Of a DNA stretch of 32,000 nt, positions 10,810-32,000 are shown in pieces. A program made the position numbers and the translations under genes. The DNA is from Okeania sp. (GTDB lineage Bacteria; Cyanobacteriota; Cyanobacteriia; Cyanobacteriales; Microcoleaceae): assembly GCF_035285525.1 (NCBI RefSeq), contig NZ_JAYKGW010000047.1, forward strand, positions 8,149 to 40,148, given 5' to 3'. Numbering within the stretch: position 1 is the first letter of the stretch; each line of letters begins with the position of its first letter. Under the pieces are notes generated by a model. The model made no database searches. It was given only the letters and a program-made list of their open reading frames with translations, and was not told the origin of the DNA.

Positions 10810-10840
10810 CTGATAACTGATAACTGATAACTGATAACTG
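10810..10840. repeat. STRR heptamer array (CTGATAA x4)
   Basis: Tandem heptamers ending 2 nt before the ATG at 10843. Confidence 0.9.
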
Positions 10841-10842
10841 AA

Positions 10843-11352
10843 ATGATTGACCCCGGTCTCCAATATCCAATTTTTGGTCCTGAGATTCAGTGTCCTCACT
10901 GTCGCGAGACCATTCCAGCTCTTACTTTAACAGATACTTATTTGTGTCCTCGTCATGGGGCGTTTGAAGCCGATCCAAATACTGGTGAGTTGTCTCATCT
11001 CTATTCTGGCCGTCACTGGCGCCTCTGGAATAATGAGTGGTATCGGCAACATACTCATCCCGATGGAATCAGGTTTGAAATCCATGAGGCTCTTGACCGA
11101 CTTTATACTCAAGGATATCGAGCAACTCGTGTGATTATTGCTCAAAGATATCGGGAGTCGGTTAATGCTTATTTAGAAGGTAGTACCGGTAGGCGTGCTA
11201 ATTCTGAATCTGATTTAGTAAAACTTTATGGTTTACCTGTAGAATTTAGTCCTGACCCGAAGGATGAACCTTGTTGGGAAGTCATTAATTTCCAATTAGA
11301 GAAAGAGGAAGGGGTAGTTGGGAGGTATCCCTATTTTCGATTGTTGGAGTAA
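10843..11352 (+). CDS. conserved hypothetical protein with N-terminal zinc-ribbon-like CxxC...CxxH
   Basis: 169-aa ORF with balanced composition. CPHCRETIPALTLTDTYLCPRHG is a knuckle pair. The family is not recognised beyond that. Confidence 0.65.
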   Translation: MIDPGLQYPIFGPEIQCPHCRETIPALTLTDTYLCPRHGAFEADPNTGELSHLYSGRHWRLWNNEWYRQHTHPDGIRFEIHEALDRLYTQGYRATRVIIAQRYRESVNAYLEGSTGRRANSESDLVKLYGLPVEFSPDPKDEPCWEVINFQLEKEEGVVGRYPYFRLLE

Positions 11353-11619: not shown

Positions 11620-11937
11620 GTAAGCATTCAGCCGTCAGCCATCAGCTATCATCTATTTTTTTTGGTTTTATATAAAATCCGGTTGAATACTCGTTATATA
11701 GTTGTCGGAGATGGGGAGATGGGGAGATGGGGAGACGGGGAGACGGGGAGACGGGGAGATTGAAGTGTAGATAAAATTATGAACATATACACTTGTAACC
11801 GGATTCTATATTAGATGTAAATCTCATCTTTAAGACTATGTTTATAAACATTTCTCTTAATATAAAACTTTGTAATCGATAGCTTGAAAAACAGAGTCTT
11901 GTTGCTGATAGCTGATAGCTAATACCTAAATGCTTAC
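11620..11937. mobile_element. MITE-like element, GTAAGCATT-terminus family, carrying an internal heptamer array
   Basis: Ends are GTAAGCATTCAGCCGTCAGCCATCAGCTATCA / GCTGATAGCTGATAGCTAATACCTAAATGCTTAC. The interior (GTAAATCTCATCTTTAAGACTAT...ATAAACATTTCTCTT.ATATAAAACTT) matches the copy at 31521-31743. There is a GGGGAGA heptamer run at 11707-11761. Confidence 0.7.
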
Positions 11938-12062
11938 ATTACACATTACTATTAGATATCTCCAATTTTATCCAGAAATTATCAATTCTTTCTTCCTGTT
12001 CCCTGTTTCATCCCTGAACTAGAAAATTAATCTTAGAAGTAAAGTTTAAAATATTAAAATAA

Positions 12063-12500
12063 ATGCACCATGTTTCGATTCGGACTGGTAATATTCATCG
12101 AGCGATCGCTTTCTATGAAAAGTTAGGTTTTATAGTTTGTCAACGCTTTACTACAGGGTATACTTTAGCCTGTTGGATGGAAGGATTAAATGGTATAATT
12201 GAACTAATTCAAATTCCTGAACCTAAACCTGCACCTGATGCTTTTGGGGATGAAAATTATGTTGGATATTATCATATATCATTTGATTTGACTGAAATTG
12301 TTGCAGATTTACCTAGTTGGTTAAATTCTTTAAAACAACAGTTTGATTTAGCGGTTATAGAACAATCAGAAGTTTTTCAACCATTAAAAATTTTGTTAGA
12401 ACCTACCCAACAAATAATTGGAAATAATGTTTATGAAGTTACCTTTATTGCGGATAGTGATGGTTTACCTTTAGAGTTTATTAGGAAGTTAAATCCCTAA
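12063..12500 (+). CDS. VOC (glyoxalase/bleomycin resistance/dioxygenase) family protein
   Basis: 145-aa ORF. The N-terminal HHVSIRTGNIHRAIAFYEKLGF is the classic VOC beta-alpha-beta start, with a second half-site at YYHISFDL. Confidence 0.75.
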   Translation: MHHVSIRTGNIHRAIAFYEKLGFIVCQRFTTGYTLACWMEGLNGIIELIQIPEPKPAPDAFGDENYVGYYHISFDLTEIVADLPSWLNSLKQQFDLAVIEQSEVFQPLKILLEPTQQIIGNNVYEVTFIADSDGLPLEFIRKLNP

Positions 12501-12799
12501 GTTTTTGTTGAAGGAAGGCAGAATTTAGAAGGGGAATAATGAGGTAAGAATATAATTGTTTTCATCTATCCTAATTCTATATCAACTAATAAATTTCTTC
12601 TGCACGACTACTTAAATATCTAATTTTTGGTATATTTTAGCTGAAAATAAAAAAACTGAAACTCTTACCTCGTCTCAGTTAAGTGTTCCCACCTTCTCTG
12701 TTCCCTGTTACCTAAAAGATGATACAATTTCTGATTAAAAATGCCTTAAAATATTACTGTGTAAATTTTTTTAATTTATTCAGCAAACTCTAATTAATT

Positions 12800-12888
12800 A
12801 GGACTTACCCATAGACCATAGATATAGCTTTCAAAACTATAGCGCTATAGTTCTTTAAATCTATATATAGTAACTTTGTGTAAGTCCT
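12800..12888. repeat. small palindromic dispersed repeat (AGGACTTACCCA...TGTGTAAGTCCT)
   Basis: Termini read directly. It ends 12 nt before the ORF opening at 12901. Confidence 0.85.
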
Positions 12889-12927
12889 GTTAATCAAAAA
12901 TTGACTGTTAAAGGATGTAAAATAGAG

Positions 12928-13230
12928 ATGATTAAACAAAAATTTCGTCAATTTCATAAAATCGTCGCGCCAATAGTTTTTCTACCACTATTTGTGACTG
13001 TAATTACAGGAGTAGCTTATCGACTAGGTAGAAATTGGTTTGGATTATCTAGAGACCAAGCACATATTTTAATGGTAATCCATGAAGGTGAATATTTGGG
13101 CAATGAAATTAAACCTTTTTATGTATTATTAAATGGTATTGGTTTAGTTTGGATGTTAGTAACAGGTATTGTTATGAGTGGTGTATTTAGTAAAAAGAAA
13201 CCTCAGCCAAATAAAGAACAATCATCGTAA
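12928..13230 (+). CDS. small two-TM membrane protein (PepSY-associated TM-helix-like)
   Basis: From the ATG at 12928: MIKQKFRQFHKIVAPIVFLPLFVTVITGVAYRLGR...LNGIGLVWMLVTGIVM. The track start at 12901 is a TTG. The stop codon lies inside a solo MITE terminus. Confidence 0.55.
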   Translation: MIKQKFRQFHKIVAPIVFLPLFVTVITGVAYRLGRNWFGLSRDQAHILMVIHEGEYLGNEIKPFYVLLNGIGLVWMLVTGIVMSGVFSKKKPQPNKEQSS

Positions 13231-13267
13231 GCATTTCCTGTGGAATGCGCTCCCATTCAGCTATCAG
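13227..13267. repeat. solo terminus of the GTAAGCATT MITE family
   Basis: GTAAGCATTTCCTGTGGAATGCGCTCCCATTCAGCTATCAG matches the end of the 31521 and 22388 copies. The TAA at 13228-13230 within it is the stop of the upstream ORF. Confidence 0.6.
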
Positions 13268-13667
13268 ATCCATCAATTTCATAACTTAACCTTAGTAAAT
13301 TATTGTCAATTTTATTTGTAACACAACCATCCTGGTTGTAACAACCAAGATGGTTGTGCCACCAAAGTTACTGAATAAAATTTTGTACCTCACGCGCGGG
13401 CGTGAAATTGCTGTACATGTTCCCAGTCCCGGTATCTTGCCCGCGCAGGTATACCCCCTATTCCCCCTCCTCAAAGCCTAAAATAGCGATCGCAAACTTA
13501 TCGCCATTCTAAGTTTTGTAACAATTAAAATCGGATTGCAATAATTGCTTAATGATTACTTTATAAAGAAAGTCTAAGTTTAATTACAAAATATTAAAAA
13601 AATCCGCAAATTCTTAAAAACTTGTTATTGTAAAAAACATAAACATTAAAAAACTTTAAAAAAAACA

Positions 13668-13790
13668 ATGAAAGTATCAAATTCTTCTTCTTCACATCTT
13701 GGTCAGTCAATATCCCTAGGAATTGTTTTAGTCCTTATGAGTGTTGGGATTATGCTCTTGACAATGCTAATGATTGCAAATAGCAATTAA
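13668..13790 (+). CDS. hypothetical 40-aa membrane peptide
   Basis: MKVSNSSSSHLGQSISLGIVLVLMSVGIMLLTMLMIANSN with one TM helix, in an otherwise empty A-rich intergenic region. No family is recognised. Confidence 0.3.
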   Translation: MKVSNSSSSHLGQSISLGIVLVLMSVGIMLLTMLMIANSN

Positions 13791-13970
13791 TTAGCTATCA
13801 ACTTCCAGCCACTCTGGGTTAAAATTTTCTTAGAGTTTGATAATTCTGATTACTAAATACTAACCACCGACTACTTCTTCAAGCAAAATAATAGACCCCA
13901 AGCTACTGAGGTCTAGTTAATCCAATTTCAAGATAGTTTCAATATAGGGTGAGATAATAGCATCCCCACC

Positions 13971-14684
13971 CTATAAACGCACTAAAAGATTTTTACCATG
14001 AGTATCAGTACCGCAGGTATTGATTAAACCATAAATAGCACTAAGTCTTTTCACTTGTTCTGTTTGCTTTGGGCTAGGTTTCCATGGTTTAGTATGACTG
14101 TAAGCATAGTAAGTCTCCACCCCATCAATACCCAAATTTGCTGCTTCCTTAATTAAGTCAGTAGCGGAACGCCGATAACGACAGGGATGAGCGAGTACCG
14201 CTAAACCACTCGCTTTTTGAATAGCACTAATTACATTAGCAGCTTGATATTCTTGACCTTTAGTTGCTTTTCCTGTCAAATAAGGCTTTAAACCAAAGTT
14301 TTCTGGGTTAAAACCATATCCAAGAATATGTACCTCAACATTCAGTAAGTTAGCATTAATTTCTACTCCGCTCCACAGAGTAGGTGCTAAATGTTCTTGA
14401 TCTGGATTGATAGATTTCCAGTTTTCTAACCAAGTTTTAGCTTTTTTATAACCACCAATATTATGATGGTCGGTAATGGCCAAACCTTTGAGGCCGATCG
14501 CAAGTGCTTGCTGTATTAAAGTCTCAGGTGTTAACTGTCCATCAGAATAGATTGTATGTAGATGAAAGTTATAAGAGTTTGGGCAAGTATCAGCATCAAC
14601 AGTTTCAAAGATTTGCTTAATTTGAGAGTAATTATTAACTACTCTTTTTTCGGTTAAATCACGAGCCGGAGTTATGATAGACAT
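13971..14684 (-). CDS. PHP domain-containing metal-dependent phosphoesterase
   Basis: 237-aa ORF with FHLHTIYSDG, AITDHHNIGG, VLAHP and GTDTHG histidine motifs in PHP order. Confidence 0.85.
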   Translation of the reverse strand: MSIITPARDLTEKRVVNNYSQIKQIFETVDADTCPNSYNFHLHTIYSDGQLTPETLIQQALAIGLKGLAITDHHNIGGYKKAKTWLENWKSINPDQEHLAPTLWSGVEINANLLNVEVHILGYGFNPENFGLKPYLTGKATKGQEYQAANVISAIQKASGLAVLAHPCRYRRSATDLIKEAANLGIDGVETYYAYSHTKPWKPSPKQTEQVKRLSAIYGLINTCGTDTHGKNLLVRL

Positions 14685-15000
14685 ATATCTTCATAAATTG
14701 TTACTCTCTCCAATATATCTAAAAATTTACCTGATAGGGTGGAAGTTAGTCCTAGTTAACTAAATAGATATCGCCAGAAAAGAGGAAGTAGGGACATTTG
14801 GATGCAACGTTCTTGAATAATTAATAATTAATAATTACCTATTCTTATAAAGAAGAGGACTAGCGAAAAGGAACTTTTTTTCTTTTTTTTCCATGAATGG
14901 AGAGGCTTTATACCTTAATTTTTTGGTAAAAAGTAGGGAGCAGAGAGTAGGAGAAAAAAATTGATACTTTCTGTGCAATAATTGATTTTATTTTTTATTC

Positions 15001-15047
15001 ACTACTTACGCAAAGCAACCAAGAAACCGGGTTTCTACATAAGTCCT
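15001..15047. repeat. short copy of the palindromic repeat family (ACTACTTACGCA...CATAAGTCCT)
   Basis: Termini plus the central AAGAAACCGGGTTTCT palindrome. It is flanked by 33-bp imperfect direct repeats at 14942-14974 and 15071-15103. Confidence 0.7.
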
Positions 15048-15328
15048 ACTATTGTTCGAAAAGAGAGAGTAGAGAGTAAGGAGAAAAAATTAATCGTTTC
15101 TGTACCAGAATAAATTCTTTTTGTAAAAATTTTCTATGAAAGAAATTTAAAATATTGATAATTATAGTAGCGATTTATCTGTATTGAAAATTACATAAAA
15201 ATCATAAATGGACTCAATCGAAGTGGAATGGGCAACGCCCATTCCTGAAAGAAGCGGATGAACTAATGTAGCCAACTTTGATTGGATAAGTAAAAATAAT
15301 CTGTTTCATTTTTAATACCATATTAGCT

Positions 15329-16546
15329 TTAGTCCTGATTGCGGAAGACACGAGCCATATCCAATACTTTTGCCCAACGTTTTTGTAACTGCTTAGGAGT
15401 ACATTTGATGGCAGTAGCGATCGCTTTTTCATCTTCACCAGCTTGCTTAAGTTCTAAAATTTGCTTTTCCTCTGCAGAAAGAGTAGTTAAGAAAGCTTGC
15501 CATTTATCAGAAACCATACCTAATTTTTGGTCAATATCAGCTCCTAACCATTCATGTACTAACTGCCAATTTTGAGAACGAGCAAACTTTTCTACATGAT
15601 ACTTAAAACGTTGTTGTAAGTAATCCCGTTGACGAGAAGTTAAGCCCAACTTTTTATCAATATCAGATGCTTGATAATCTTGTAGTCTTAATTTTAGATA
15701 ATCAATACATTCGTCTTGTCCAGCTTCCTCTAAGTATTTGACTAACTCAGAAATTACGCGATCGCGCAACACAGCTTCAGCAGGGTCAACAGTCTCTGCA
15801 ACCATTTGTTCCCGCACTTGTTGGACAGCAGAAGAGCGACTATGAGCTTCTCCCTCTTCACCTTTAGGAGACTCAACTGCCATTTCAATATCAATTGCAG
15901 TTTCGGGAGGTTGACCTTTAGCAAAACTCTGAGCGCGTAACACAATTAATCTTTGACGGTTGCGACCAGGTAAACCAATTTGGCGTTTCGCGTATTGTTC
16001 AGTGAATGTCATGTATTCTGCTAATTCTAACTTTACTTTAGGAGTATAGTCTTGGTCTAAACCATGCTCCCGACGGAAAGCTCGTAGACACTCAATATAA
16101 AATCCTTGTAAAAAATCCTCAATCATGTTATAACGACCTTGGAAATTTAACTGAGTTCCATAAGCAGCAATATGACGATAAACCATTGAAGCTAGGAGAG
16201 AGTGTAATTCTACACGACCTCTATGAGAACCGAGTTTGTAATATTCTAAGCACTTTTCCCAACGATGGCGTGCCAAACTAAGTTGCCAGGAACGAACTTC
16301 ACCAGAATTTTGAATCCTATTACTTTTTAAACAAATTCTTTCTACTTCTTTAGCTATCCGTAGAGCTACAGTTTTAGCTTTTGCTGGCTTACTTTTTGCA
16401 CCATCTTGCAACTCTTTTAAGACCACACCAGCTAAAGCTTCTGTATCCATTTCTAGTGCATTATTTGTTGTAGTTTGATTTTCAAGTTGGTTGTGATTAA
16501 CTTTTGCAGTAGTAGAGTTTTGGGAGTTAGCAGTCTTAATAGTCAT
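15329..16546 (-). CDS. HetZ-related protein (HetZ family, C-terminal HTH)
   Basis: 405-aa ORF. Blocks RIQNSGEVRSW, YYKLGSHRGRVELHS, IEDFLQGFYIE, LIVLRAQSF, RQRDYLQQRFKYH and the C-terminal ILELKQAGEDEKAIATAIKCTPKQLQKRW match my recollection of HetZ-family proteins. No patU-like gene follows, so it is probably the paralog rather than hetZ itself. Confidence 0.65.
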   Translation of the reverse strand: MTIKTANSQNSTTAKVNHNQLENQTTTNNALEMDTEALAGVVLKELQDGAKSKPAKAKTVALRIAKEVERICLKSNRIQNSGEVRSWQLSLARHRWEKCLEYYKLGSHRGRVELHSLLASMVYRHIAAYGTQLNFQGRYNMIEDFLQGFYIECLRAFRREHGLDQDYTPKVKLELAEYMTFTEQYAKRQIGLPGRNRQRLIVLRAQSFAKGQPPETAIDIEMAVESPKGEEGEAHSRSSAVQQVREQMVAETVDPAEAVLRDRVISELVKYLEEAGQDECIDYLKLRLQDYQASDIDKKLGLTSRQRDYLQQRFKYHVEKFARSQNWQLVHEWLGADIDQKLGMVSDKWQAFLTTLSAEEKQILELKQAGEDEKAIATAIKCTPKQLQKRWAKVLDMARVFRNQD

Positions 16547-16878: not shown

Positions 16879-17037
16879 ACATTATCAGTTATCAATTATC
16901 AGTTATCAGTTATCAGTGTCCAGAAGTTGGTATTCAGAAGCCAATATTAACTAGGGTTGGCGCTGAAAAGTCTCTTGGAGAGGTTAGGCAATAGGCAATG
17001 GGCAATGGTTGTAGGTATTAATTTTTCTGCATTTTTC

Positions 17038-23434: not shown

Positions 23435-23989
23435 ATGAAAGAGATAAATCAATACTCAGATAAATTATTTCTAGTCCGAAATTTACTCGATAATGAACAA
23501 TGCGATAAATACATTGAAATGGCTGAATCAATTGGATTTGAAGAAGCAAGTATTACAACAAACTTCGGTTCTGTTATGGATAAAAGTATTAGAAATAACG
23601 ATCGGGTAATTTGGGATGATGAAAAGTTAGCAAAAGAATTATTTGAAACAACAAAATCTTACATTAAAAATCCTTGCAAAGGATTATATTGTACTGGTTT
23701 AAATGAGAGATTTAGGTTTTATAAATATTCTCCTGGTCAAAAATTTGGTTGGCATTCTGATGGTTATTATGAAAGAGAAAATGGCGAACGTTCGAGATGG
23801 ACTTTATTGTTTTATCTAAATGATGGTTATGAAGGTGGTGCAACGAAATTTAGAACTACAGAAGTAAGGGGAAATAAGGGAGATGCTTTGTTTTTTTTCC
23901 ATCGTCAATTACATTGTGGTGACATGGTAAAGTCAGGCATTAAATATGTTTTACGGACAGATATTATGTATGAAGCAAAGGTTAAATAA
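23435..23989 (+). CDS. 2OG-Fe(II) oxygenase (prolyl 4-hydroxylase-like)
   Basis: 184-aa ORF. It has the HxD...H facial triad candidates (GWHSDGYY and QLHCG), a downstream basic residue (KYVLRTD) and double-stranded beta-helix size. Confidence 0.8.
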   Translation: MKEINQYSDKLFLVRNLLDNEQCDKYIEMAESIGFEEASITTNFGSVMDKSIRNNDRVIWDDEKLAKELFETTKSYIKNPCKGLYCTGLNERFRFYKYSPGQKFGWHSDGYYERENGERSRWTLLFYLNDGYEGGATKFRTTEVRGNKGDALFFFHRQLHCGDMVKSGIKYVLRTDIMYEAKVK

Positions 23990-24028
23990 TTAATAATTAA
24001 TAATTAATAATTAATAATTAATTATTAA
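23987..24028. repeat. STRR heptamer array (TAATAAT)
   Basis: It starts in the stop codon of the oxygenase gene and runs into the MITE at 24032. Confidence 0.9.
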
Positions 24029-24031
24029 CTA

Positions 24032-24190
24032 GACAGTACAAAGTTATATGAATAATTATTGCTAGCTAAGGCTTTTAGCTATCTAAAAGTTAGAAACTTT
24101 CTCTTGATAACTTTAGGTGCTGTAAGCCTATACCAGTAATACTTTTATCCTTAAAAGCAAATATTTTTTTTGGAGAACTTTGCACTCTCC
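24032..24190. mobile_element. about 160-bp MITE-like element (inverted copy of 18417-18577)
   Basis: Ends are GACAGTACAAAGTT / AACTTTGCACTCTCC, flanked on both sides by TAATAAT arrays. Confidence 0.65.
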
Positions 24191-24216
24191 AGTAATTAAT
24201 AATTAATAATTAAATT

Positions 24217-24318
24217 TTGACTGACGCAGAGAAACTGGGTTTTTAGGATAAATCGTTATTTTTAACAATAAATATTAACGAAAAAAAAACGATTTATGGG
24301 TTCATTTGCGTAAGTCTT
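24217..24318. repeat. small palindromic dispersed repeat, one end eroded
   Basis: TTGACTGACGCAGAGAAACTGGGTTT...TTCATTTGCGTAAGTCTT is the reverse complement relative of 17143-17243. Confidence 0.75.
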
Positions 24319-24406
24319 GTAATAACTAAATTTTGCTAGGGCGGGTATCTTGCCCGCGTTTGTTTACCTCATCAAAGTAGAATCTAATGTATCTTTTCCT
24401 AATACT

Positions 24407-25714
24407 ATGAAAACATCATCTTTTCTAAATTTAACTATTGGATTATCTCTAATAATTAATTTAATTGCGGCAATAATAATCAGCTCTTCATTACAATATG
24501 CAGATTTAATTCACGTTATTACTATTGGTTCAATTATTTTATTAAGTTGGTTTCTGTTACCGAAAATTTTGCCTCTTCAAAAGAGTACATATGGCGCAAA
24601 TAATGGTCTATATGATTTTGGTCTGGTTCCTAGTTTCTTATCGCTTGGCTTATTGCATGAGGTATTTTATGGATATCCTAAAAGTGCTCCTAGCTACTTT
24701 AAAAAAATATGTCTATTTACGCCATTTTTAGCAATACTTTTCTGGTTATATAGTTTAGGTTTCACTGCTTTTCCTTTAGTATTAAAAATCATTTGGTTAT
24801 TGCTAACAATACCTATGATTTTTATCCTTCATCTTGGTGCTGATAAAGTAAGTTATGCAATGTGGATACCGACTTTTCTGTTGCCAATATTACAAGCGAT
24901 CGCTCTGATAACAGGTATTATAAGATTTTTTCTTTTAGATATATCAACTAAGGTAGAAATAGGGCAAAGTCTGTTAATCGTAATTGGTTTTGCCATATTA
25001 ACAGTCCTATGGGCAGGAAGTCTGGAAATAATATCAAATGCTCAGAGAAATAAAAGTAAATTATTGTTAGATAATCCTAGAGTTTGTATTTTTGTCAGAG
25101 TTATTAATCCTGAAAATCAAGACTGCAAAGTAAATTCTACTGCTCTAAATAAACAGCGTGGATTTTTACATGAATATGCAAACAGCCAAGGATATAAACT
25201 AGATCGTATTCAATATACTGTAGATAATGGTTATACAGAAGAAACAGATGAATTAAAACAATATCGCCAAGCATTTATATCTTTATTGGAAAATCCAAAT
25301 TATAATATATTTCTGGTAGAAAAAGAAGAAAGTTTAGCTAGGTTTGGCATTGAAGAAGCTAAACGTATCCTCAAAGAAAATGGCAAATATCTTGAAGTAT
25401 TTAATCAAGAAATTGAAAAATCAAGACAAATAGAAAATAAGCAGATTTTTACTATTTCTATAATATTGCACACAATGGTTATTATCGGCGGATTAATAGG
25501 AGGTTGGCGGTTAAATTTGTTCATTTATTTTTATGCTCCTTTGGTATTCTTCTGGATTCTTTGGCTATTTTTAGTCATAATATTTACTATGCTAGTTATT
25601 ATGCTATTAAAAGATAACAAAGATAACCCTTACCCTTACCCTATATTTGTGGCTTCTTTAATTCCCTTATTAATATTACTAGCATTCGGTTTCAGAGTAT
25701 TTATCAACAGTTAA
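24407..25714 (+). CDS. polytopic membrane protein with a central degenerate (catalytically dead) IS607-type serine-recombinase domain
   Basis: The ORF is open from the TTG at 24350, but that codon lies in a GC-rich dispersed repeat, so the ATG at 24407 (MKTSSFLNL...) is preferred. About 6-7 hydrophobic helices precede the soluble core, which spans track residues 243-352 (nt 25076-25405). The core reads RVCIFVRVINPENQ...ALNKQRGFLHEYANSQGYKL...VDNGYTEE...FLVEKEESLARFGIEEAKRILKENGKYLEVFN. Three hydrophobic helices follow it. Confidence 0.7.
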   Translation: MKTSSFLNLTIGLSLIINLIAAIIISSSLQYADLIHVITIGSIILLSWFLLPKILPLQKSTYGANNGLYDFGLVPSFLSLGLLHEVFYGYPKSAPSYFKKICLFTPFLAILFWLYSLGFTAFPLVLKIIWLLLTIPMIFILHLGADKVSYAMWIPTFLLPILQAIALITGIIRFFLLDISTKVEIGQSLLIVIGFAILTVLWAGSLEIISNAQRNKSKLLLDNPRVCIFVRVINPENQDCKVNSTALNKQRGFLHEYANSQGYKLDRIQYTVDNGYTEETDELKQYRQAFISLLENPNYNIFLVEKEESLARFGIEEAKRILKENGKYLEVFNQEIEKSRQIENKQIFTISIILHTMVIIGGLIGGWRLNLFIYFYAPLVFFWILWLFLVIIFTMLVIMLLKDNKDNPYPYPIFVASLIPLLILLAFGFRVFINS

Positions 25715-25727
25715 CAATTAATTCAAA

Positions 25728-25894
25728 ATGGATAATCAATCGTAAGAAAAATTATTAAATCAACTAATAAATCCCCTAAAAGCTAAAGACTGGAAAACGG
25801 CTAATGAGATTATTTTTTGTCTTTTTTTAGAACTATTCCTGAAGATATTAGTAACTATAGATGAATTCATAATCAGGATTTACATAAGATTAAA
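25728..25894 (+). pseudogene. dead duplicate of the 5' end of the GUN4/receiver gene
   Basis: ATGGATAATCAATCGTAAGAAAAATTATTAAAT...GGAAAACGGCTAATGAGATTA...CCTGAAGATATTAG...ATCAGGATTTACATAAGATTAAA aligns base for base with 26346-26513. It has a stop at codon 6 and indels. Confidence 0.7.
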
Positions 25895-26093: not shown

Positions 26094-26339
26094 ATGATTT
26101 ATCCTGAGCCTCGTATTACTTTAATTGTTTTCTCACTTTTAGGTTTAATTGCTTTTTATTTTCCTTTGATATTCTGGATTATTTGCCTATCGTTAATAAT
26201 AATATTTACTATACTACTTATTGCAATACTCATATATTGTGGTCTGGCTCACTTTATATTTCTCTTTCCTCTGATTCCCTTATTAAGATTGCTAGCATTC
26301 GGTTTCATAATATTTATCTTGTCAACAGTTAACAACTAA
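26094..26339 (+). CDS. 81-aa three-helix membrane protein, paralog of the C-terminus of 24407..25714
   Basis: FPLIFWIICLSLIIIFTILLIAIL...LIPLLRLLAFGFIIFILSTVNN parallels APLVFFWILWLFLVIIFTMLVIML...LIPLLILLAFGFRVFINS. The DNA homology continues through the stop into the next gene. Confidence 0.55.
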   Translation: MIYPEPRITLIVFSLLGLIAFYFPLIFWIICLSLIIIFTILLIAILIYCGLAHFIFLFPLIPLLRLLAFGFIIFILSTVNN

Positions 26340-26345
26340 TTCATC

Positions 26346-29300
26346 ATGAATAATCAATCATCAGAAAAATTATTAAATAAACTAAGAAATCGCCTAGAAG
26401 CTAAAGATTGGAAAACGGCTAATGAGATTACTTTTTGTCTTTTTTTTGAAACTATTCCTGAAGATATTAGCAACCCTGGATGGATTCATTATCAGGATTT
26501 ACATAAGATTAAAGATGAAGTTTTAAAAGAAAGCGATCGCCTCTGGGTATATCATTCTGAAGGACGTTTTGGTTTTAGTGTTCAATGGCAAATTTTCTAT
26601 CAATTATATCTAGAATTATATCTGGAAGGAAAGCATAGGGATTATATGATGTTAGAAGAAACTTTTGCAGAAAAAGTTGGTCGTATTAGAGCTGCTGGTT
26701 ATGATATTAAAGAAGTTAATTTTAGTTTAGATTTTCCTCAAGGATATTTACCTTGGTTTCACTGGTATGATTCTCAAAACTATAAATTTCGTAGTGGCAT
26801 AACGGGAGGTGGTGGTGTGGGTTGGGAAGCAATTTTTTATGTAGCAGAATTATTAGAAAGAAGTGGTGCAATACCTCCAGAAGGAAAAGTATGGAACCGT
26901 CAAGAAATAATAGAAAAAATAAAAGAAGGTAATCCTAATTTTAGTCGAGGTAATTTAGTAGGAATTGATTTACAAGGGTTAGATTTATCTAATGCAAATT
27001 TTCTCGGTGCAGATTTAAGTCAAAGTAATCTTGCTAAAGCAAAATTAAATAAAACTAACTTTTATTCTGCTAATCTCTATGAAGCTAATTTATCTCAAAT
27101 AGAAGGAATCAATACTTATTTCAGAAAGGCTAAATTGGAAGGTACAATTTTTTGGCAAGCTCAACTTGTTAATGTTGACTTGACTAAAGTTTCTGCATTT
27201 AGAGCAATATTTGATGAAAGTAAATGGGAAAATGTGAATGCAACTGAGGGAGACTTTTTTGCAGCAAATTTTTATTGGGTTATCTGCCAAAATACATCTT
27301 TTTCCCAAGCCGATATTTCCTATACAAGTTGGCAAGAAGCAATTTTAAAAGACTGTAATTTTGCAGAGGTAGTTAAAAATAAAGCTAGACTCAAAATGAC
27401 TAAATTTGTCGGCAAAAATTGGAATAGTCAATTAGACAAGTTAACAACTTCTAAGACAAAGACTTTAGCAAATCTTCCTTTAGCAAAATATAAACCTATA
27501 GATAAGAGATCGCCCACTATTTTTATTATTGATGATTCAATTACAGTTAGAGAATTATTATCTATGACTTTTACAAAAGCGGGATATAAAGTTGTTTTAG
27601 CTAGAGATGGGCAAGATGCTTGGGAACAATTAAAAGTTGGTTTAGTTTGTGATTTTATTCTTTCAAATATCGAAATGCCTCGGATGGATGGTATCGAGTT
27701 TTTATCAAGAGTTAAAAAAGATGAAAAACTAAAAGATATTCCCTTTGCACTTTTGACGAGTAGAGGTGCAAATAGAATGCGTACTAATAACTGGTGGGAT
27801 GAACGTATTGTTGCTCGCTTTACTAAACCTTATATTGAGCAAAATTTATTAGAAACTGTTGCTAATACATTAAAAATATTGCCAGAAAATAAGCAACAAA
27901 CTTTAGCCAAAGAAATTACAAATAAACGACCTACTATTTTAATTGTTGATGATTCTATTGTAGCCAGAGAATTATTAACTATGACTTTTACCAAAGCTGG
28001 ATATGATGTTATTAAAGCCAAAGATGGTAAAGATGCTTTAGATAGATTAAATACTGGCGTAGTTTGCGATTTTATTTTTTCAAATATTGAAATGCCTAAG
28101 ATGGATGGTTTCCAATTTTTGGCAGAAGTTAAGCAAGATGAAAAACTCAAAAATATTCCTTTTGCATTTATATCTAGTACAAATAGAAATAAAAATAGAA
28201 TCAGTAGTAGCTCTTGGAATCAAAGTATTGTTGCTCACTTTACTAAACCTTTTATAGAGGAACAATTATTAGAAACAGTTACTAAAGCATTAAATAATTT
28301 GCCAGAAAATAAGGAAGCAACTTTAGCCAAAGAAATTATAGATAAACGATCTACCATTTTTATTGTTAATTATTCAAATACTGTCAGAAAATTATTAAGG
28401 ATAGCTTTGACAAAAGCCGGATATAAAATTGTTGAAGCTAGAGATGGGCGAGATGCTTGGGAACAACTAAAAGCAGGTTTAATTTGCCATTTTATTTTCT
28501 GTGATACGGAAATGCCTCGGATGGATGGTTTTGAGTTTTTATCAAGAATTAAACAAGATGAAAAGCTCAACAATATTCCCCTGGCATTTCTCAGTAGTCA
28601 AGCTAAAAGGAGAAAAGATATTAGCTTAGAATTAGGTGCGGTTCCTCACTTTACTAAACCTTTTATAGAGGAACAATTATTAGAAACAGTTACTAAGACA
28701 TTAAATAATTTTCCAGAAAATCAGGAACAAACTTTAGCCAAAGAAATTACAGATAAACGACCTACTATTTTAATTGTTCATTATTCAAATACTGTCAGAA
28801 AATTATTAAGGATAGCTTTGACAAAAGCCGGATATAAAATTGTTGAAGCTAGAGATGGGGGAGATGCTTGGGAACAACTAAAAGCAGGTTTAATTTGCCA
28901 TTTTATTTTCTGTGATACGGAAATGCCTCGGATGGATGGTTTTGAGTTTTTATCAAGAATTAAACAATATGAAAAGCTCAACAATATTCCCCTGGCATTT
29001 CTCAGTAGTCAAGGTAAAAGGAGAAAAGATATTAGTTTAAAATTAGGTGCTATTGCTCACTTTACTATACCTTTTATAGAGGAACAATTATTAGAAACAG
29101 TTGCTAATACATTAAGTAATTTGCCAGAAAATCAAGATGAAACTTTAGCCGAAAACTGGAAAAATAAACCACCGACTATTTTAATTATTGATTCTTCAAT
29201 TACAGTCAGAAAATTATTTGTAGGATATAAAACAGCCAGAAAATTATTTGTAGGATATAAAATTGTTGAAGCTAGAGATGGGGGAGATGCTTGGGAACAA

Positions 29301-30578
29301 TTACAAGCAGGTTTAAATTGTGATTTTATTTTCTGCGATACCGAAATGCCGCGAATGGATGGTTTCGAGTTTTTATCAAGAATTAAACAAGATGAAAAGC
29401 TCAAAAATATTCCCCTGGCATTTCTCAGCAGTCAAGTTAACAGGAAAAAAGATATTAGCTTAGAATTAGGTGCGGTTGCTCACTTTACTAAACCTTTTAT
29501 AGAGAAAGATTTATTAGAAACAGTTACTAAGACATTAAATAATTTGCCAGAAAATCAAGATGAAACTTTAGCCGAAAAATGGAAAAATAAAACGCCGACT
29601 ATTTTAATTATTGGTACTTCTTTTGATAAACGGCAAGAATTAAGTCACTCTTTTATCAAAGCAGGTTATCAAGTATTCAGAGATATCCTTGGTACTGATA
29701 GTTGGCAAATATTACAAAGCAACTTAAATAATATTGATTTTATTCTATCCGATCTAGGTAATTTAGAATTATTAGAAAAAGTCAAACAGGATGAAGCGTT
29801 ACATAATATTCCTTTGGCAATTATCCACACTAAAGAAATCCTTCCTTTTATTCGAGAACAATTTGATATAGTTGATTACTTTACTTATCCTTATGTAGAA
29901 CAAAAATTGTTAAAATCTATTGCTAAAATTATAGGTAGAGAAGCAGAATATTTAAGCTTTTTGGAAAACTCAATAGAAAGAGAAAAGGAAAATATAAATT
30001 CTGGTAAACTGAGACAATCTCAAACTCGTTTTTTTGTCGTTGGATTAAATTTAGAACAACGGAAACAATTAGTAACTTTGTTCAGATTTAAACCAAACTT
30101 ATTCTGCCATTTTTTTCCAGAAAATCAACTTCTTAATTCTGGTGCAGATAAATTTAATACTCAATTATTAATATCTCAACTACAAGAAAGAATTATAAAT
30201 AATATTAGCCCTCCATCTTACTTCAATAATTTTTATAATTTATCAAACACTTATAACTGTACTTTCATCCCAGATAATTTACTAAATTATTTTGCCGAAA
30301 TTTCTGATAATTCATCTTCTTGTTCCCTATACCTTCTGATTCAGATTAATGTACTTAAAAGTTTAAGCAAACTAAACTTGAAAGAAGCTTTACCTCAATT
30401 TTCTACTATTGTTATTGATGATAAAAATAAACTTGATATTATTTCTTCTGATTTCTTAAAACAACTGCAACAAAATTGGAATACAAAAGCCTATATTACC
30501 AACCTTAAAGCTCCAGATATTTTGGAAACATTTGCCTCTGTAGTTAATGGTGAAGCACCAATCGAAAAAAAAAATTAA
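26346..30578 (+). CDS. 1410-aa GUN4 domain / pentapeptide-repeat / six tandem receiver (REC) domain protein
   Basis: GUN4-like block at aa 8-175 (WKTANEIT...DLHKIKDEVLKESDRLWVYHSEGRFGFSVQWQIF). Pentapeptide repeats at aa 197-345 (NLVGIDLQGLDLSNANFLGADLSQSNLAKAKLNKTNFYSANLYEANLSQ...). REC-like units start at aa 390, 529, 669, 806, 943 and 1084, each matching PTILI(V/I)DDS..VR.LL...KAGY.V..A.DG.DAW..L......F....EMPRMDGFEFL...K.DEKL..IP.A.LSS.....FTKPF. The uncharacterised tail at aa 1199-1410 has faint REC-like blocks. Confidence 0.9.
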   Translation: MNNQSSEKLLNKLRNRLEAKDWKTANEITFCLFFETIPEDISNPGWIHYQDLHKIKDEVLKESDRLWVYHSEGRFGFSVQWQIFYQLYLELYLEGKHRDYMMLEETFAEKVGRIRAAGYDIKEVNFSLDFPQGYLPWFHWYDSQNYKFRSGITGGGGVGWEAIFYVAELLERSGAIPPEGKVWNRQEIIEKIKEGNPNFSRGNLVGIDLQGLDLSNANFLGADLSQSNLAKAKLNKTNFYSANLYEANLSQIEGINTYFRKAKLEGTIFWQAQLVNVDLTKVSAFRAIFDESKWENVNATEGDFFAANFYWVICQNTSFSQADISYTSWQEAILKDCNFAEVVKNKARLKMTKFVGKNWNSQLDKLTTSKTKTLANLPLAKYKPIDKRSPTIFIIDDSITVRELLSMTFTKAGYKVVLARDGQDAWEQLKVGLVCDFILSNIEMPRMDGIEFLSRVKKDEKLKDIPFALLTSRGANRMRTNNWWDERIVARFTKPYIEQNLLETVANTLKILPENKQQTLAKEITNKRPTILIVDDSIVARELLTMTFTKAGYDVIKAKDGKDALDRLNTGVVCDFIFSNIEMPKMDGFQFLAEVKQDEKLKNIPFAFISSTNRNKNRISSSSWNQSIVAHFTKPFIEEQLLETVTKALNNLPENKEATLAKEIIDKRSTIFIVNYSNTVRKLLRIALTKAGYKIVEARDGRDAWEQLKAGLICHFIFCDTEMPRMDGFEFLSRIKQDEKLNNIPLAFLSSQAKRRKDISLELGAVPHFTKPFIEEQLLETVTKTLNNFPENQEQTLAKEITDKRPTILIVHYSNTVRKLLRIALTKAGYKIVEARDGGDAWEQLKAGLICHFIFCDTEMPRMDGFEFLSRIKQYEKLNNIPLAFLSSQGKRRKDISLKLGAIAHFTIPFIEEQLLETVANTLSNLPENQDETLAENWKNKPPTILIIDSSITVRKLFVGYKTARKLFVGYKIVEARDGGDAWEQLQAGLNCDFIFCDTEMPRMDGFEFLSRIKQDEKLKNIPLAFLSSQVNRKKDISLELGAVAHFTKPFIEKDLLETVTKTLNNLPENQDETLAEKWKNKTPTILIIGTSFDKRQELSHSFIKAGYQVFRDILGTDSWQILQSNLNNIDFILSDLGNLELLEKVKQDEALHNIPLAIIHTKEILPFIREQFDIVDYFTYPYVEQKLLKSIAKIIGREAEYLSFLENSIEREKENINSGKLRQSQTRFFVVGLNLEQRKQLVTLFRFKPNLFCHFFPENQLLNSGADKFNTQLLISQLQERIINNISPPSYFNNFYNLSNTYNCTFIPDNLLNYFAEISDNSSSCSLYLLIQINVLKSLSKLNLKEALPQFSTIVIDDKNKLDIISSDFLKQLQQNWNTKAYITNLKAPDILETFASVVNGEAPIEKKN
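27513..29939 (+). repeat. six tandem coding repeats of 411-423 bp (the REC units)
   Basis: Units start at 27513, 27930, 28350, 28761, 29172 and 29595. 28371-28620 and 28782-29031 differ at only about 3 positions by eye. Confidence 0.9.
29202..29261 (+). repeat. in-frame 30-bp tandem duplication inside REC unit 5
   Basis: ACAGTCAGAAAATTATTTGTAGGATATAAA is followed by ACAGCCAGAAAATTATTTGTAGGATATAAA (1 mismatch). It encodes RKLFVGYKTA + RKLFVGYKIV. Confidence 0.95.
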
Positions 30579-30603
30579 AGATCAAAAATTAAAATAATTA
30601 AAT

Positions 30604-30813
30604 GCAGAATTAACAAAAATATTTTTAGATTTCGACAAAAGTAAAAAACTAATCGAGAAAGAAAAAATCAAAGAAATTAGCGATGAATAATTAATCCAAA
30701 TATTCTTAGATTTTGATAAAGAAGCTAAAAATACTTCTGAGAGTCAAAAAACAATTGAAAAGGAAATTAGCGATGCAGAACTAATCAAAATCCTCTTAGA
30801 TTTTAATAAATAA
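30604..30813 (+). repeat. degenerate tandem repeat (about 90 bp x 2.4) with coding-like periodicity
   Basis: One frame reads AELTKIFLDFDKSKKLIEKEKIKEISDE*LIQIFLDFDKEAKNTSESQKTIEKEISDAELIKILLDFNK*. There is no start codon and an internal stop. Confidence 0.6.
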
Positions 30814-31209: not shown

Positions 31210-31249
31210 ACTGATAACTAATAGCTGATAACTGATAACTGATAACTGA
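31210..31249. repeat. STRR heptamer array (CTGATAA)
   Basis: CTGATAACTAATAGCTGATAACTGATAACTGATAACTGAA lies inside the disrupted Rpn-family gene. Confidence 0.9.
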
Positions 31250-31520
31250 AAAGGTGTGTTATGATTATCTTTAAAAGTCGTAGTTTTGAACCAACAGACA
31301 GAAACAGGGAATCTGTACAACATTTTTTAGATACTCCCCTCATCAAGCGCATCTATTTGAATGAATTAAAAGTGAGTGAAACAACTCCCTTAGGTGTACA
31401 AATCGTTCAATTAGTTGTAGAAAAAAAGAAACAATTTTTGGAGAGAGCAACCTTATTAATTAATCAAGTAAGACAACAATTTACCAATGAAAATGATCGG
31501 TTGCAATTACTTAACTTATT

Positions 31521-31743
31521 GGTAAGCATTTCCTCCGGAATGCTGCGCAAACAGCCGTCAGCCATCAGCTATCAGCTATTTTTTTTGGTTTTAAATGTAA
31601 ATCTCATCTTTAAGACTATACTTTATAAACATTTCTCTTGATATAAAACTTGATAATGGATAGCTTTAAAAGCAGAGTCTTGTTCCTGTTAACGAAGTTC
31701 CGACCTAGGAGGCTAGCTGAAGTGCTAATAGCTGAATGCTTCC
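31521..31743. mobile_element. MITE-like element, GTAAGCATT family, inserted in the Rpn-family pseudogene
   Basis: Ends are GGTAAGCATTTCCTCCGGAATGCTGCGCAAACAGCCGTCAGCCATCAGCTATCAGC / GCTGAAGTGCTAATAGCTGAATGCTTCC. The interior matches 11620-11937. Confidence 0.75.
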
Positions 31744-32000
31744 ACTTATTGTCAGTTATTGTTCTAGAAAAATTACCACAAATGATTCGTAAGGAGTTAA
31801 AAACTATGTTTAGTATGAATGATTTGAAAAAAACTCGTTTGGCTCAAGAATTAATTGCAGGAATCAAAATAGAAACCAAATCAGAGGCAAAACTAGAGGC
31901 AAAATTAGAAGTGATTCCTAAGTTGTTAAAAAAAGGCTTTTCTGTTCAAAAAATTGCCGAAATTTGAGAACTAGAAGTTGAGCAAATACGAAAAGTTATT

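What the first reader, a model, noticed from the sequence alone, without database searches (positions are those of the whole stretch)
26346..30578. Giant GUN4 / pentapeptide / six-receiver protein with no output domain
A single 4.2-kb ORF joins three modules: a GUN4-like domain (aa 8-175), about 30 pentapeptide-repeat turns (aa 197-345) and six consecutive CheY-like receiver units (aa 390-1198). A 210-aa tail follows that I cannot assign, although its blocks SCSLYLLIQINV, FSTIVIDDKN and AYITNLKAPDILETF hint at a seventh, very degenerate unit. GUN4 is a porphyrin-binding activator of Mg-chelatase, and receivers are phosphorylation-switch modules. I know of no characterised protein that chains six receivers behind a tetrapyrrole-binding domain. 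There is also no HTH, GGDEF, kinase, HPt or other output. An open frame of 1410 codons in DNA this AT-rich cannot arise by chance. This looks like an undescribed signalling or scaffold architecture, possibly linking tetrapyrrole status to a multivalent receiver platform.
Basis: partly seen in the sequence, partly recalled or inferred. Interest (0 to 1): 0.88.

Follow-up and report, generated by a model that had tools for sequence, protein, structure and literature searches.

The report
GUN4–pentapeptide protein with degenerate receiver array
A real 1410-residue cyanobacterial (Okeania) protein joins a GUN4-like domain, a pentapeptide β-helix and six tandem receiver domains, but every receiver has lost a phosphorylation residue, so it is probably a phosphorylation-blind scaffold from a small uncharacterised family.

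Summary
The ORF and its domains are real. GUN4-like scores E 5e-18. There are 33 pentapeptides in one register. Five receivers (REC) each score 60-71 bits. A sixth REC is degenerate and recognisable only through its ortholog. The 212-aa tail is a conserved domain with a predicted (βα)5, REC-like fold.

The protein is identical to an NCBI "response regulator [Okeania sp.]". It belongs to a rare family of filamentous cyanobacteria, about a dozen sequences. Fuller members carry an N-terminal ThsA-type SLOG domain, with or without a Macro domain, and one or two RECs. The window copy has no SLOG. It enlarged the REC array by tandem duplication of a 411-bp unit; the ortholog has 4 units.

No REC keeps a full active site. 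R1 and R2 have Asn at the phospho-acceptor position. R3-R6 lack the acidic pair. A C-terminal acidic-helix motif has also been lost through a frameshift and stop codons. An invariant Asp sits where SynGUN4 has the porphyrin-essential Arg214.

Constraint is relaxed (dN/dS 0.33-0.94), but the frame is clearly kept open by selection.

The reading as a multivalent phosphorylation platform that senses tetrapyrrole is only partly supported. This is a new variant of an uncharacterised family, of moderate interest.

The parts
26346..30578 (+). Complete ORF, 1410 aa plus TAA stop. Identical to NCBI 'response regulator [Okeania sp.]' (P0001).
26346..26885 (+). GUN4-like domain (Pfam match aa 9-138; the domain runs to about aa 180). 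It has the RFGFSVQ and GYLPW motifs. There is no Gun4 N-terminal helical domain. Asp142 lies at the SynGUN4 Arg214 position.
26934..27428 (+). Pentapeptide-repeat β-helix: 33 units in one register (aa 197-361), about 8 coils.
27513..27929 (+). Receiver R1 (aa 390-528), 65.9 bits. DD pair present; phospho-acceptor Asp replaced by Asn (motif ..LSNIEMP). The ortholog's R1 is canonical (LCDIEMP).
27930..28349 (+). Receiver R2 (aa 529-668), 68.6 bits. DD pair present; Asn at the phospho-acceptor position, and the same Asn is in the ortholog's R2.
28350..28760 (+). Receiver R3 (aa 669-805), 70.8 bits. Acidic pair replaced by NY; D57, S and K kept.
28761..29171 (+). Receiver R4 (aa 806-942), 60.4 bits. 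Acidic pair replaced by HY; K109 replaced by Ile. 93% DNA identity to R3.
29172..29594 (+). Receiver R5 (aa 943-1083), 60.9 bits. Acidic pair is DS. Helix α1 is disrupted by an in-frame 30-bp tandem duplication at 29202-29262.
29595..29939 (+). Degenerate receiver R6 (aa 1084-1198). No Pfam hit. GT replaces DD, the MPxMDG loop is deleted and K109 is Tyr. Orthologous to unit 4 of P0002. dN/dS 0.94.
29940..30575 (+). Conserved C-terminal domain (aa 1199-1410), restricted to this family. Predicted (βα)5 fold with an insertion between α2 and β3. Motifs RFFxxGLNLxQRK, CxFFPE and CTFIPD.
30568..30813 (+). Dead remnant of the C-terminal 'ELxKIFLDFD' acidic-helix motif, three copies. It is out of frame after an A10 run (30565-30574) and interrupted by two TAA codons. 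The motif is intact in P0002 (2 copies) and P0003 (1 copy).
25550..25894 (+). Older copy of a 618-bp tandem duplication of the gene junction. It holds the 3' end of the upstream membrane-protein gene plus a decayed copy of this gene's first ~170 nt, with a stop at codon 6. The live copy is 26172-26513.

Best explanation
This is an expressed-type, selectively maintained cytoplasmic protein of an Okeania-like filamentous cyanobacterium. It is a derived member of a rare family with the core GUN4-like domain, pentapeptide β-helix, receiver(s) and a family-specific C-terminal α/β domain.

Shown:
- The ancestor of the window and MAG08 lineage already had four receiver units plus the tail.
- The window lineage triplicated the third unit, a 411-bp repeat, to reach six.
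- Every unit now lacks at least one residue needed for Mg2+-dependent aspartyl phosphorylation.
- The N-terminal SLOG sensor of sister proteins is absent.
- The C-terminal acidic-helix motif is dead.

Inferred: the protein no longer works as a phospho-switch. It more likely acts as a phosphorylation-independent adaptor or scaffold. The better-conserved ends, the GUN4-like domain (dN/dS 0.33) and the C-terminal domain (0.47), would bind a small hydrophobic ligand or protein partners. The β-helix and the chain of pseudo-receivers would provide a rigid spacer and repeated docking or oligomerisation surfaces, as pseudo-receivers do in other proteins.

The receivers are most similar to the C-terminal receivers of cyanobacterial CheA-type hybrid kinases. 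A plausible partner class is therefore the Hpt or kinase modules of pilus-motility and phototaxis chemosensory systems. That step is speculation.
For: Domains.

Active-site table.

Unit orthology: W_R1~M_R1 77%, W_R2~M_R2 80%, W_R3/4/5~M_R3 77-82%, W_R6~M_R4 67%.

The R2 Asp-to-Asn change is shared with the ortholog and also occurs in REC2 of the Trichodesmium/Okeania paralogs. The pseudo-receiver state is therefore old and retained.

Selection: dN/dS is 0.33-0.72 for all parts except R6, at 0.94. Neutral drift of only 2% would introduce about 6 stops into this frame, and 0 of 500 simulations stayed intact.

Family and architectures.

Tail: (βα)5 secondary structure in two independent models. 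Foldseek top lists are dominated by receiver domains (VpsT, TadZ/CpaE, RcsB, DesR, NarL), with TM about 0.6 normalised to the target.

Nearest non-family receiver relatives are CheA-like hybrids, some with three tandem receivers.

Precedent for an output-less tandem REC protein with a pseudo-receiver that acts through protein contacts: DrdR (PMC13507683).
Against: - No experiment or expression data exist.
- No conserved functional partner gene was found in the window or in L001.
- Relaxed constraint, the dead C-terminal motif, the 30-bp duplication in R5 and neutral R6 fit progressive loss of function as well as a scaffold role.
- The tail's REC-like fold rests on low-confidence models (pLDDT 50 and 68) with non-significant Foldseek E-values (3e-3 and 1e-2). 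The profile-profile comparison with the receiver alignment was negative.
- R1 and R2 carry Ser-Asn at positions 56-57. From memory, E. coli CheY D57N can be phosphorylated on Ser56, so residual phosphorylation cannot be excluded.
Confidence: 0.5

Rival explanations
1. The gene is decaying. It would be a redundant paralog drifting towards pseudogenisation after losing its sensor (SLOG) and its phospho-sites, so the six-receiver array has no specific function.
For: - dN/dS is higher than for the neighbouring 2OG-oxygenase gene (0.21): 0.41-0.72 in the receivers and 0.94 in R6. The R3/R4 paralog pair gives 1.65.
- The C-terminal motif was destroyed by a frameshift plus two stop codons.
- A 30-bp slippage duplication lies inside R5.
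- R1 lost its acceptor Asp, although the ortholog keeps it.
- The locus carries a decayed 618-bp junction duplication.
- A sister gene in Sphaerospermopsis is truncated at 492 aa.
Against: - A 4.2-kb frame in 30% GC DNA cannot stay open without selection. 2% neutral divergence gives about 6 stops, and 0 of 500 simulations stayed intact. The gene differs from its ortholog by about 14% at the DNA level.
- dN/dS is below 1 for the GUN4 domain, R1, R5 and the tail.
- The ortholog in an independent assembly keeps the same multi-receiver plus tail design.
Confidence: 0.22
2. It is a working phosphorelay component: a multi-receiver phosphate sink or relay hub fed by a histidine kinase.
For: - Five units are strong Response_reg matches.
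- Family members in Nostocales, and R1 of the ortholog, have fully canonical receivers.
- The closest outside relatives are receivers of CheA-type kinases.
- T87 (as S/T) is kept in every unit, and K109 is kept in R1, R2, R3 and R5.
Against: No single unit combines the acidic pair with the acceptor Asp. R1 and R2 are DD with Asn57. R3 is NY, R4 is HY, R5 is DS and R6 is GT, each with Asp57. R4 and R6 also lack Lys109. Established receiver chemistry needs D13 and D57 for Mg2+ binding and phosphoryl transfer.
Confidence: 0.1
3. It is part of an anti-phage or conflict system. On this view the family is a Thoeris-like effector: a SLOG or Macro domain senses an ADP-ribose-derived signal and the GUN4-PPR-REC part executes a response. 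The window protein would be a sensor-less decoy or remnant.
For: - Relatives carry STALD/LDcluster4 SLOG domains that hit PADLOC ThsA models, and Macro domains.
- ThsA SLOG binds cADPR isomers, and Macro-type ThsA proteins exist (PMC7272460 and PMC11204291, listed).
- GUN4 and pentapeptide domains are listed among effector-position domains of cyanobacterial conflict systems (PMC7159879).
- Toxin-antitoxin, Abi and restriction genes lie near some relatives.
Against: - No SLOG or Macro sequence occurs anywhere in the window or in L001.
- No TIR/ThsB gene was seen next to any family member in nine loci examined.
- PADLOC hits to the window protein are domain-level only: kinase-GUN4 and kinase-REC models of PD-T4-6.
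- The window neighbourhood is housekeeping chromosome.
Confidence: 0.08
4. The number of receiver units is an assembly artefact, from mis-joined or expanded repeats in a short-read metagenome-assembled genome.
For: - R3 and R4 are 93% identical at the DNA level and share a 107-bp exact stretch.
- The ortholog has a single unit where the window has three.
- The source contig is only 40 kb.
Against: - Units differ by 7-14% or more, so they are resolvable by short reads. All junctions keep the reading frame and the 411-bp period.
- An independent assembly (MAG08) also has a four-unit array plus the tail, so the multi-receiver design itself is real.
Confidence: 0.07

Closest known systems
Unnamed cyanobacterial family SLOG-GUN4-pentapeptide-REC-C-terminal domain. 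Members: Nodularia harveyana P0003, Okeanomitos P0004, metagenome L008. Direct ortholog: P0002 from a tar-biofilm MAG.
   Same: The GUN4-like plus pentapeptide region is 52-57% identical to the Nostocales members and 84% identical to P0002. The receiver type is the same. The same C-terminal domain is present, 31-75% identical.
   Different: The window protein has no SLOG domain and six receivers instead of one (four in P0002). None of its receivers is canonical, whereas the Nostocales ones are DD/D/S-T/K. Its C-terminal acidic-helix motif is lost. None of these proteins has been studied.
Macro-SLOG-GUN4-pentapeptide-REC(-REC') proteins of Trichodesmium and Okeania (P0025, P0026, P0028; L012-L014).
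   Same: The order GUN4-like, pentapeptide, receiver is the same. The second receiver also has Asn at the acceptor position.
   Different: Identity is only 36-38%. These proteins have a large insertion in the GUN4 domain, a short β-helix, Macro and SLOG domains at the N-terminus and no C-terminal domain. A Peptidase_M48 gene follows in every locus seen, and chlD precedes in two Okeania-type loci.
Gun4/Ycf53, the porphyrin-binding activator of Mg-chelatase (Synechocystis 1Y6I, T. elongatus 1Z3X).
   Same: Homologous core domain: Pfam E 5e-18 and family profile against PDB E 4e-16. The LWxxxSxGRFGFSVQ and P-x-G-(H/Y)-L-P motifs are conserved.
   Different: The Gun4 N-terminal helical domain is absent. 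The alignment ends at SynGUN4 N211. The Arg214 position is an invariant Asp, and α7-α8 are replaced by a Gly-rich segment. Porphyrin binding and ChlH activation are untested.
Output-less tandem-receiver or pseudo-receiver proteins. One example is Xanthomonas DrdR (pseudo-REC plus REC acting on PilB/PilT). From memory, others are the PleD adaptor receiver, FrzZ, the KaiA and CikA pseudo-receivers and the TadZ/CpaE N-terminal REC-like domain.
   Same: Receiver folds are used as protein-interaction modules without an enzymatic or DNA-binding output, and degenerate units lack phospho-site residues (PMC13507683). TadZ/CpaE and VpsT are among the best fold matches of the tail.
   Different: Those proteins have one to two or three receiver folds and usually keep one functional receiver. 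Here there are six or seven in a row, none complete, behind GUN4 and pentapeptide modules.
Cyanobacterial CheA-type hybrid kinases with C-terminal receiver arrays (for example Lusitaniella P0005 and Spirulina P0009/P0012).
   Same: They hold the closest receiver sequences outside the family, at 36-45% identity. Some carry three tandem receivers.
   Different: They have Hpt, dimerisation, HATPase and CheW domains. The window protein has none of these.

Membership tests
Response-regulator receiver (REC, PF00072), fold and homology | Significant match to the Response_reg profile | tested here: met
   R1-R5 score 60.4-70.8 bits each against a cut-off of 30.2. R6 has no hit but is 67% identical to the ortholog's unit 4, which scores 41.8 bits.
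Functional, phosphorylatable receiver | Acidic pair (CheY D12/D13) that binds Mg2+ | tested here: not met
   Present only in R1 and R2 (DD). R3 is NY, R4 HY, R5 DS and R6 GT.
Functional, phosphorylatable receiver | Phospho-acceptor Asp (CheY D57) in the same unit as the acidic pair | tested here: not met
   R1 and R2 have Asn at this position. R3-R6 have Asp but lack the acidic pair. No unit has both.
Functional, phosphorylatable receiver | Switch residues T/S87 and K109 | tested here: inconclusive
   S/T is present in all six units. Lys is present in R1, R2, R3 and R5, but R4 has Ile and R6 has Tyr.
GUN4 domain (PF05419) | Significant profile match, including the RFGFSVQ and GHLP motifs | tested here: met
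   E 5e-18, 66 bits against a cut-off of 29.2. The family profile against GUN4 crystal structures gives E 4e-16 to 2e-13.
Gun4/Ycf53 porphyrin-binding Mg-chelatase activator | Arg214 (SynGUN4 numbering), essential for porphyrin binding | tested here: not met
   The alignment to 1Y6I ends at N211. Ungapped extension places the family-invariant D142 at position 214, and there is no conserved Arg in the following 25 residues. The requirement is from PMC1084334. The register beyond N211 is an inference.
Gun4/Ycf53 porphyrin-binding Mg-chelatase activator | N-terminal helical bundle domain plus core domain, total size about 230 aa | tested here: not met
   The core-domain match starts at residue 9 of the ORF, so there is no room for an N-terminal domain.
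Gun4/Ycf53 porphyrin-binding Mg-chelatase activator | Binds ChlH and stimulates Mg-chelatase | not testable with these tools
   Only context is available. chlD lies 1.3 kb upstream of the paralog in two Okeania-type loci, and chlI lies 4-9 kb from two Nostocales members. There are no Mg-chelatase genes in the window, L001, L004, L008 or L012-L014.
Pentapeptide-repeat protein (PF00805) | Tandem A(D/N)LXX-type pentapeptides in one register, enough for a right-handed quadrilateral β-helix | tested here: met
   33 units at aa 197-361, with a hydrophobic centre in 28 of 34 rows. Pfam gives 81 bits on the isolated segment.
Thoeris ThsA-like sensor/effector | SLOG (STALD) or Macro ligand-sensing domain | tested here: not met
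   No such domain in the ORF and none within the window or L001 by tblastn. It is present in the relatives P0003, P0004, P0025-28, L008 and L012-14.
Thoeris ThsA-like sensor/effector | Adjacent TIR-domain ThsB gene | tested here: not met
   None in the window and none in nine related loci.
Unnamed (SLOG)-GUN4-PPR-REC-CTD family | Shared C-terminal domain with the motifs RFFxxGLNLxQRK, CxFFPE and CTFIPD | tested here: met
   32 invariant columns across four proteins. L008 matches at E 4e-24. Only 5 hits were found among 1.84 billion representatives.

The most novel reading that the evidence does not exclude
The family to which this protein belongs would couple an NAD/ADP-ribose-derived second-messenger sensor (a ThsA-type SLOG, with or without Macro) and a two-component receiver to a GUN4-like module that acts on Mg-chelatase. 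Immune-type or stress-type nucleotide signals and chemosensory kinases could then throttle chlorophyll synthesis in filamentous cyanobacteria. The window protein would be a sensor-less, phospho-blind version. Its seven receiver-fold modules would work as a multivalent sponge for the cognate kinase or for Mg-chelatase subunits.
Probability: 0.1. Interest if true: 0.75.

Novelty: new variant of a known kind. Interest (0 to 1): 0.42.

Why it matters
If the protein is functional, it would be the longest chain of receiver-fold modules known to me in a protein with no kinase or output domain. It would also be a natural example of a whole receiver array converted to pseudo-receivers.

The wider family joins a ThsA-type SLOG or Macro sensor, a GUN4-like domain and a receiver, sometimes next to chlD or chlI. 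It is a tractable lead for asking what the many non-canonical GUN4 paralogs of cyanobacteria do. It could also show whether nucleotide second messengers or chemosensory kinases feed into pigment synthesis.

For the window sequence alone the value is more modest. It records rapid copy-number change and active-site erosion in a lineage-specific signalling protein.

Tried and rejected
1. Profile-profile comparison (hhalign) of the tail alignment with a 12-sequence receiver alignment. The only match was a trivial 19-column linker (probability 5%). The 'seventh receiver' therefore has no sequence-level support.
2. Pfam scan of four tail sequences at E<=10. Nothing credible.
3. Word-indexed search with the tail alignment and a metagenome scan with tail patterns. 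No further members.
4. PADLOC. Only domain-level hits to PD-T4-6 kinase-fusion models, so the protein is not a member of a defence system.
5. Separate SLOG or Macro gene in the window or L001. None by tblastn.
6. Mg-chelatase linkage. It looked promising in L003/L007 (chlD) and L002/L006 (chlI). It is absent from the window, L001, L004, L008 and L012-L014. The only neighbour conserved across all type-B loci seen is a Peptidase_M48 gene. It is kept as a lead, not as evidence.
7. Promoter and terminator scan: counts at or below the shuffled expectation. Rfam: no hit.
8. Reading the gene as a dead pseudogene. Rejected as the main explanation because of the neutral-drift simulation.

Full report

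Yes. The ORF 26346..30578 (+) encodes 1410 aa. With the gene's composition (A 37%, T 33%), a random frame has a stop every ~12 codons. The chance of 1410 open codons is about 1e-55.

Pfam finds the following:
- GUN4 at aa 9-138, E 5e-18.
- Pentapeptide repeats, E 7e-18.
- Five significant Response_reg stretches, E 4e-91 overall.

NCBIfam sees only CheY/DivK-type receiver matches and no output domain. The pentapeptide array is 33 units in one unbroken register, aa 197-361, which is about eight β-helix coils.

Scanned singly, R1-R5 score 60-71 bits. R6 gets no hit. Its ortholog in P0002 scores 41.8 bits and is 67% identical to it. The receiver region is a 411-bp tandem repeat, 5.0 copies, 83% matches.

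**2. Whose gene is it, and does it have relatives?**

The protein is identical to NCBI 'response regulator [Okeania sp.]' on a 40-kb contig. The window neighbourhood is ordinary chromosome. It includes phosphoribulokinase/uridine kinase, an M20 peptidase, dethiobiotin synthetase-like, Sua5/TsaC, LarC-type Ni insertion and a 2OG oxygenase.

A syntenic ortholog, P0002 (1175 aa, 84% identical over the N-terminal 385 aa), lies in a tar-biofilm cyanobacterial MAG (L001).

More distant relatives define a small family restricted to filamentous cyanobacteria:
- Type A is SLOG(STALD/LDcluster4)-GUN4-PPR-one REC-tail. Members are Nodularia P0003, Okeanomitos P0004 and metagenome L008. There is also a SLOG-less P0242 and a truncated Sphaerospermopsis P0121.
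- Type B is Macro-SLOG-GUN4-PPR-REC(-REC'). Members are Trichodesmium/Okeania P0025, P0026 and P0028, plus L012-L014.

The tail domain alone finds only 5 proteins among 1.84 billion cluster representatives. No paper in the searchable library describes a GUN4-receiver fusion. GUN4 fusions to kinases, caspases, trypsin and TIR are known (PMC7159879).

**3. Anatomy of the receiver array**

Aligned with E. coli CheY and with family receivers:

| Unit | D12/D13 | D57 | T87 | K109 | Other |
|---|---|---|---|---|---|
| R1 | DD | N | T | K | |
| R2 | DD | N | S | K | |
| R3 | NY | D | S | K | |
| R4 | HY | D | S | I | |
| R5 | DS | D | S | K | 10-aa in-frame duplication in α1 (30-bp repeat at 29202-29262) |
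| R6 | GT | D | T | Y | deletion of the MPxMDG loop |

No unit has a complete site. By contrast, the single receivers of Nodularia, Okeanomitos and L008, and R1 of P0002, are fully canonical.

Unit orthology is clear: W_R1~M_R1, W_R2~M_R2, W_R3/4/5~M_R3 and W_R6~M_R4. The common ancestor therefore had four units, and the window lineage triplicated the third. R3 and R4 are 93% identical in DNA.

The Asn at the acceptor position of R2 is shared by the ortholog and recurs in REC2 of type B. It is an old, retained pseudo-receiver state. The same change in R1 (CD to SN) is specific to the window.

**4. The tail**

The tail is a conserved domain with 32 invariant columns among four proteins. It has no Pfam family.

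Two AlphaFold models were made: the window tail (pLDDT 50) and the Nodularia tail (pLDDT 68, pTM 0.69). Both give a β-α-β-α-β-α-β-α-β-α order with a long insertion after α2. The Nodularia model adds a terminal long helix made of the acidic motif.

Foldseek against the PDB returns mostly receiver folds: VpsT, TadZ/CpaE, RcsB, DesR, NarL, CsgD and CheB. The best E-values are only 3e-3 and 1e-2. hhalign against the receiver profile is negative. My reading is a probable REC-like or flavodoxin-like interaction domain, not proven.

**5. The GUN4-like domain**

Homology is secure. All alignments to solved GUN4 proteins stop at the GHLP motif, at SynGUN4 N211. Continuing without gaps puts the family-invariant Asp142 at Arg214. 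The following segment is Gly-rich and has no conserved Arg.

Verdecia et al. report Arg214 as absolutely essential for porphyrin binding. They argue that a paralog with Tyr at that position probably binds something else (PMC1084334). Tetrapyrrole binding by this domain is therefore an open question, not a given.

**6. Signs of erosion and of selection**

Signs of erosion:
- After the stop codon, a shifted frame still reads three copies of the ELxKIFLDFD motif. That motif ends P0002 (two copies) and P0003 (one copy). Here it is cut off by an A10 run and two TAA codons.
- A 618-bp tandem duplication of the junction with the upstream membrane-protein gene left a dead copy of the gene's 5' end.

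Nei-Gojobori dN/dS against L001:

| Segment | dN/dS |
|---|---|
| GUN4 domain | 0.33 |
| PPR | 0.51 |
| R1 | 0.41 |
| R2 | 0.66 |
| R3-R5 | 0.48-0.72 |
| R6 | 0.94 |
| Tail | 0.47 |
| Adjacent oxygenase gene | 0.21 |
| Upstream membrane protein | 0.50 |

Constraint is relaxed but present. Simulated neutral substitution at 2%, 5% and 10% gives 6, 14 and 28 stops on average, and none of 500 runs at any rate stayed intact. The open frame is therefore maintained by selection.

**7. Context in relatives**

- chlD (TIGR02031, 814 bits) lies 1.3 kb upstream of the type-B gene in two Okeania-type loci.
- chlI (TIGR02030) lies 9 and 4 kb from two Nostocales members.
- L001 has a lipoprotein-type GUN4 gene 2.6 kb upstream of the ortholog.

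These are suggestive, but they are not conserved. There is none in the window, L004, L008 or L012-L014, where the constant neighbour of type B is a Peptidase_M48 gene. No TIR gene accompanies any member. No SLOG or Macro sequence exists in the window or L001.

**8. Interpretation**

The best-supported reading is a phosphorylation-independent adaptor or scaffold derived from a sensor-receiver protein (confidence about 0.5). Its ends (the GUN4-like domain and the tail) carry what specific function remains. The β-helix plus pseudo-receiver chain would serve as spacer and docking surface.

Rivals:
- A gene on its way to loss (0.22).
- A still-working phosphate sink (0.10).
- A Thoeris-like conflict component (0.08).
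- A mis-assembled repeat count (0.07). This last one affects only the number six, not the design.

**9. Novelty and score**

Every domain is a known kind, and output-less receiver or pseudo-receiver proteins have precedents (DrdR, PMC13507683). Three-receiver arrays occur in the closest CheA-type relatives. Three things are new: the combination, the length of the array, and the fact that all units are degenerate.

I rate it a new variant of a known kind, interest 0.42.
- The 'phospho-switch platform' and 'tetrapyrrole sensor' premises both fail residue-level tests.
- The copy shows erosion.
- The more informative biology sits in its SLOG/Macro-bearing relatives.

Noticed in passing
window 25550-25894 and 26172-26513: There is a 618-bp tandem segmental duplication (80-89% identity) of the junction between the 454-aa membrane-protein gene and the GUN4 gene. 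The upstream copy holds a dead 5' end of the GUN4 gene (MDNQS*). The downstream copy holds an 81-aa ORF (26094-26339) that is a remnant of the membrane protein's last two helices.
   Followed up: yes
window 30568-30813: Out-of-frame remnant of three 'ELxKIFLDFD' acidic-helix repeats after the stop codon. The motif is intact at the C-terminus of P0002 and P0003. It could be a docking peptide for receiver domains.
   Followed up: partly
window 24350-25714 (+): A 454-aa protein with about 9 predicted TM helices and a central soluble segment (about aa 240-370) has no family match beyond a weak DUF2207_C hit. It is conserved upstream of the ortholog in L001 (8208-9320), with dN/dS 0.50.
   Followed up: partly
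L001 6722-7396 (-): The orthologous locus carries a 224-aa GUN4-domain protein with a lipoprotein-like signal (…ITVGC) between the oxygenase and the membrane-protein genes. This 1.7-kb segment is absent from the window (24000-24407). That part of the window instead holds AATTAAT-type microsatellite runs.
   Followed up: partly
L003 6660-8684 and L007 1522-3546; L002 52-1173 and L006 4855-5973: Mg-chelatase genes lie close to GUN4-PPR-REC family genes in two lineages. chlD is 1.3 kb upstream in Okeania-type loci. chlI is 4-9 kb away in Nodularia and Sphaerospermopsis. This is not seen in other members.
   Followed up: partly
L003, L005, L007, L012, L014 (gene just downstream of the type-B protein): A ~500-aa Peptidase_M48 gene (with a weak TPR match in one copy) follows the Macro-SLOG-GUN4-PPR-REC gene on the same strand in every type-B locus examined. 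It is a candidate functional partner.
   Followed up: no
L006 10001-11479, then 11819-15585: The Sphaerospermopsis family member is truncated inside the pentapeptide region (492 aa). It is followed by two large unannotated ORFs (817 and 346 aa). I did not run any family search on them.
   Followed up: no
window 31261-31967: Two short adjacent ORFs (126 and 105 aa). The first matches only the C-terminal half of DUF2887, so this looks like a fragmented DUF2887 gene.
   Followed up: no
window 10805-10844, 16882-16917, 23985-24030, 31210-31252: Runs of a 7-nt AT-only tandem repeat (TAATTAA/AATTAAT) recur in intergenic regions and also in L001 (298-358). Coding density of the window is low: 21 ORFs of at least 100 aa in 32 kb.
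   Followed up: no
window 27513-28349 (R1, R2): Where the acceptor Asp is replaced by Asn, the preceding residue is Ser (…LSNIEMP / …FSNIEMP). Canonical family receivers have Cys-Asp. This is reminiscent (from memory) of CheY D57N being phosphorylated on Ser56. R1 may have acquired the R2 state by gene conversion.
   Followed up: no
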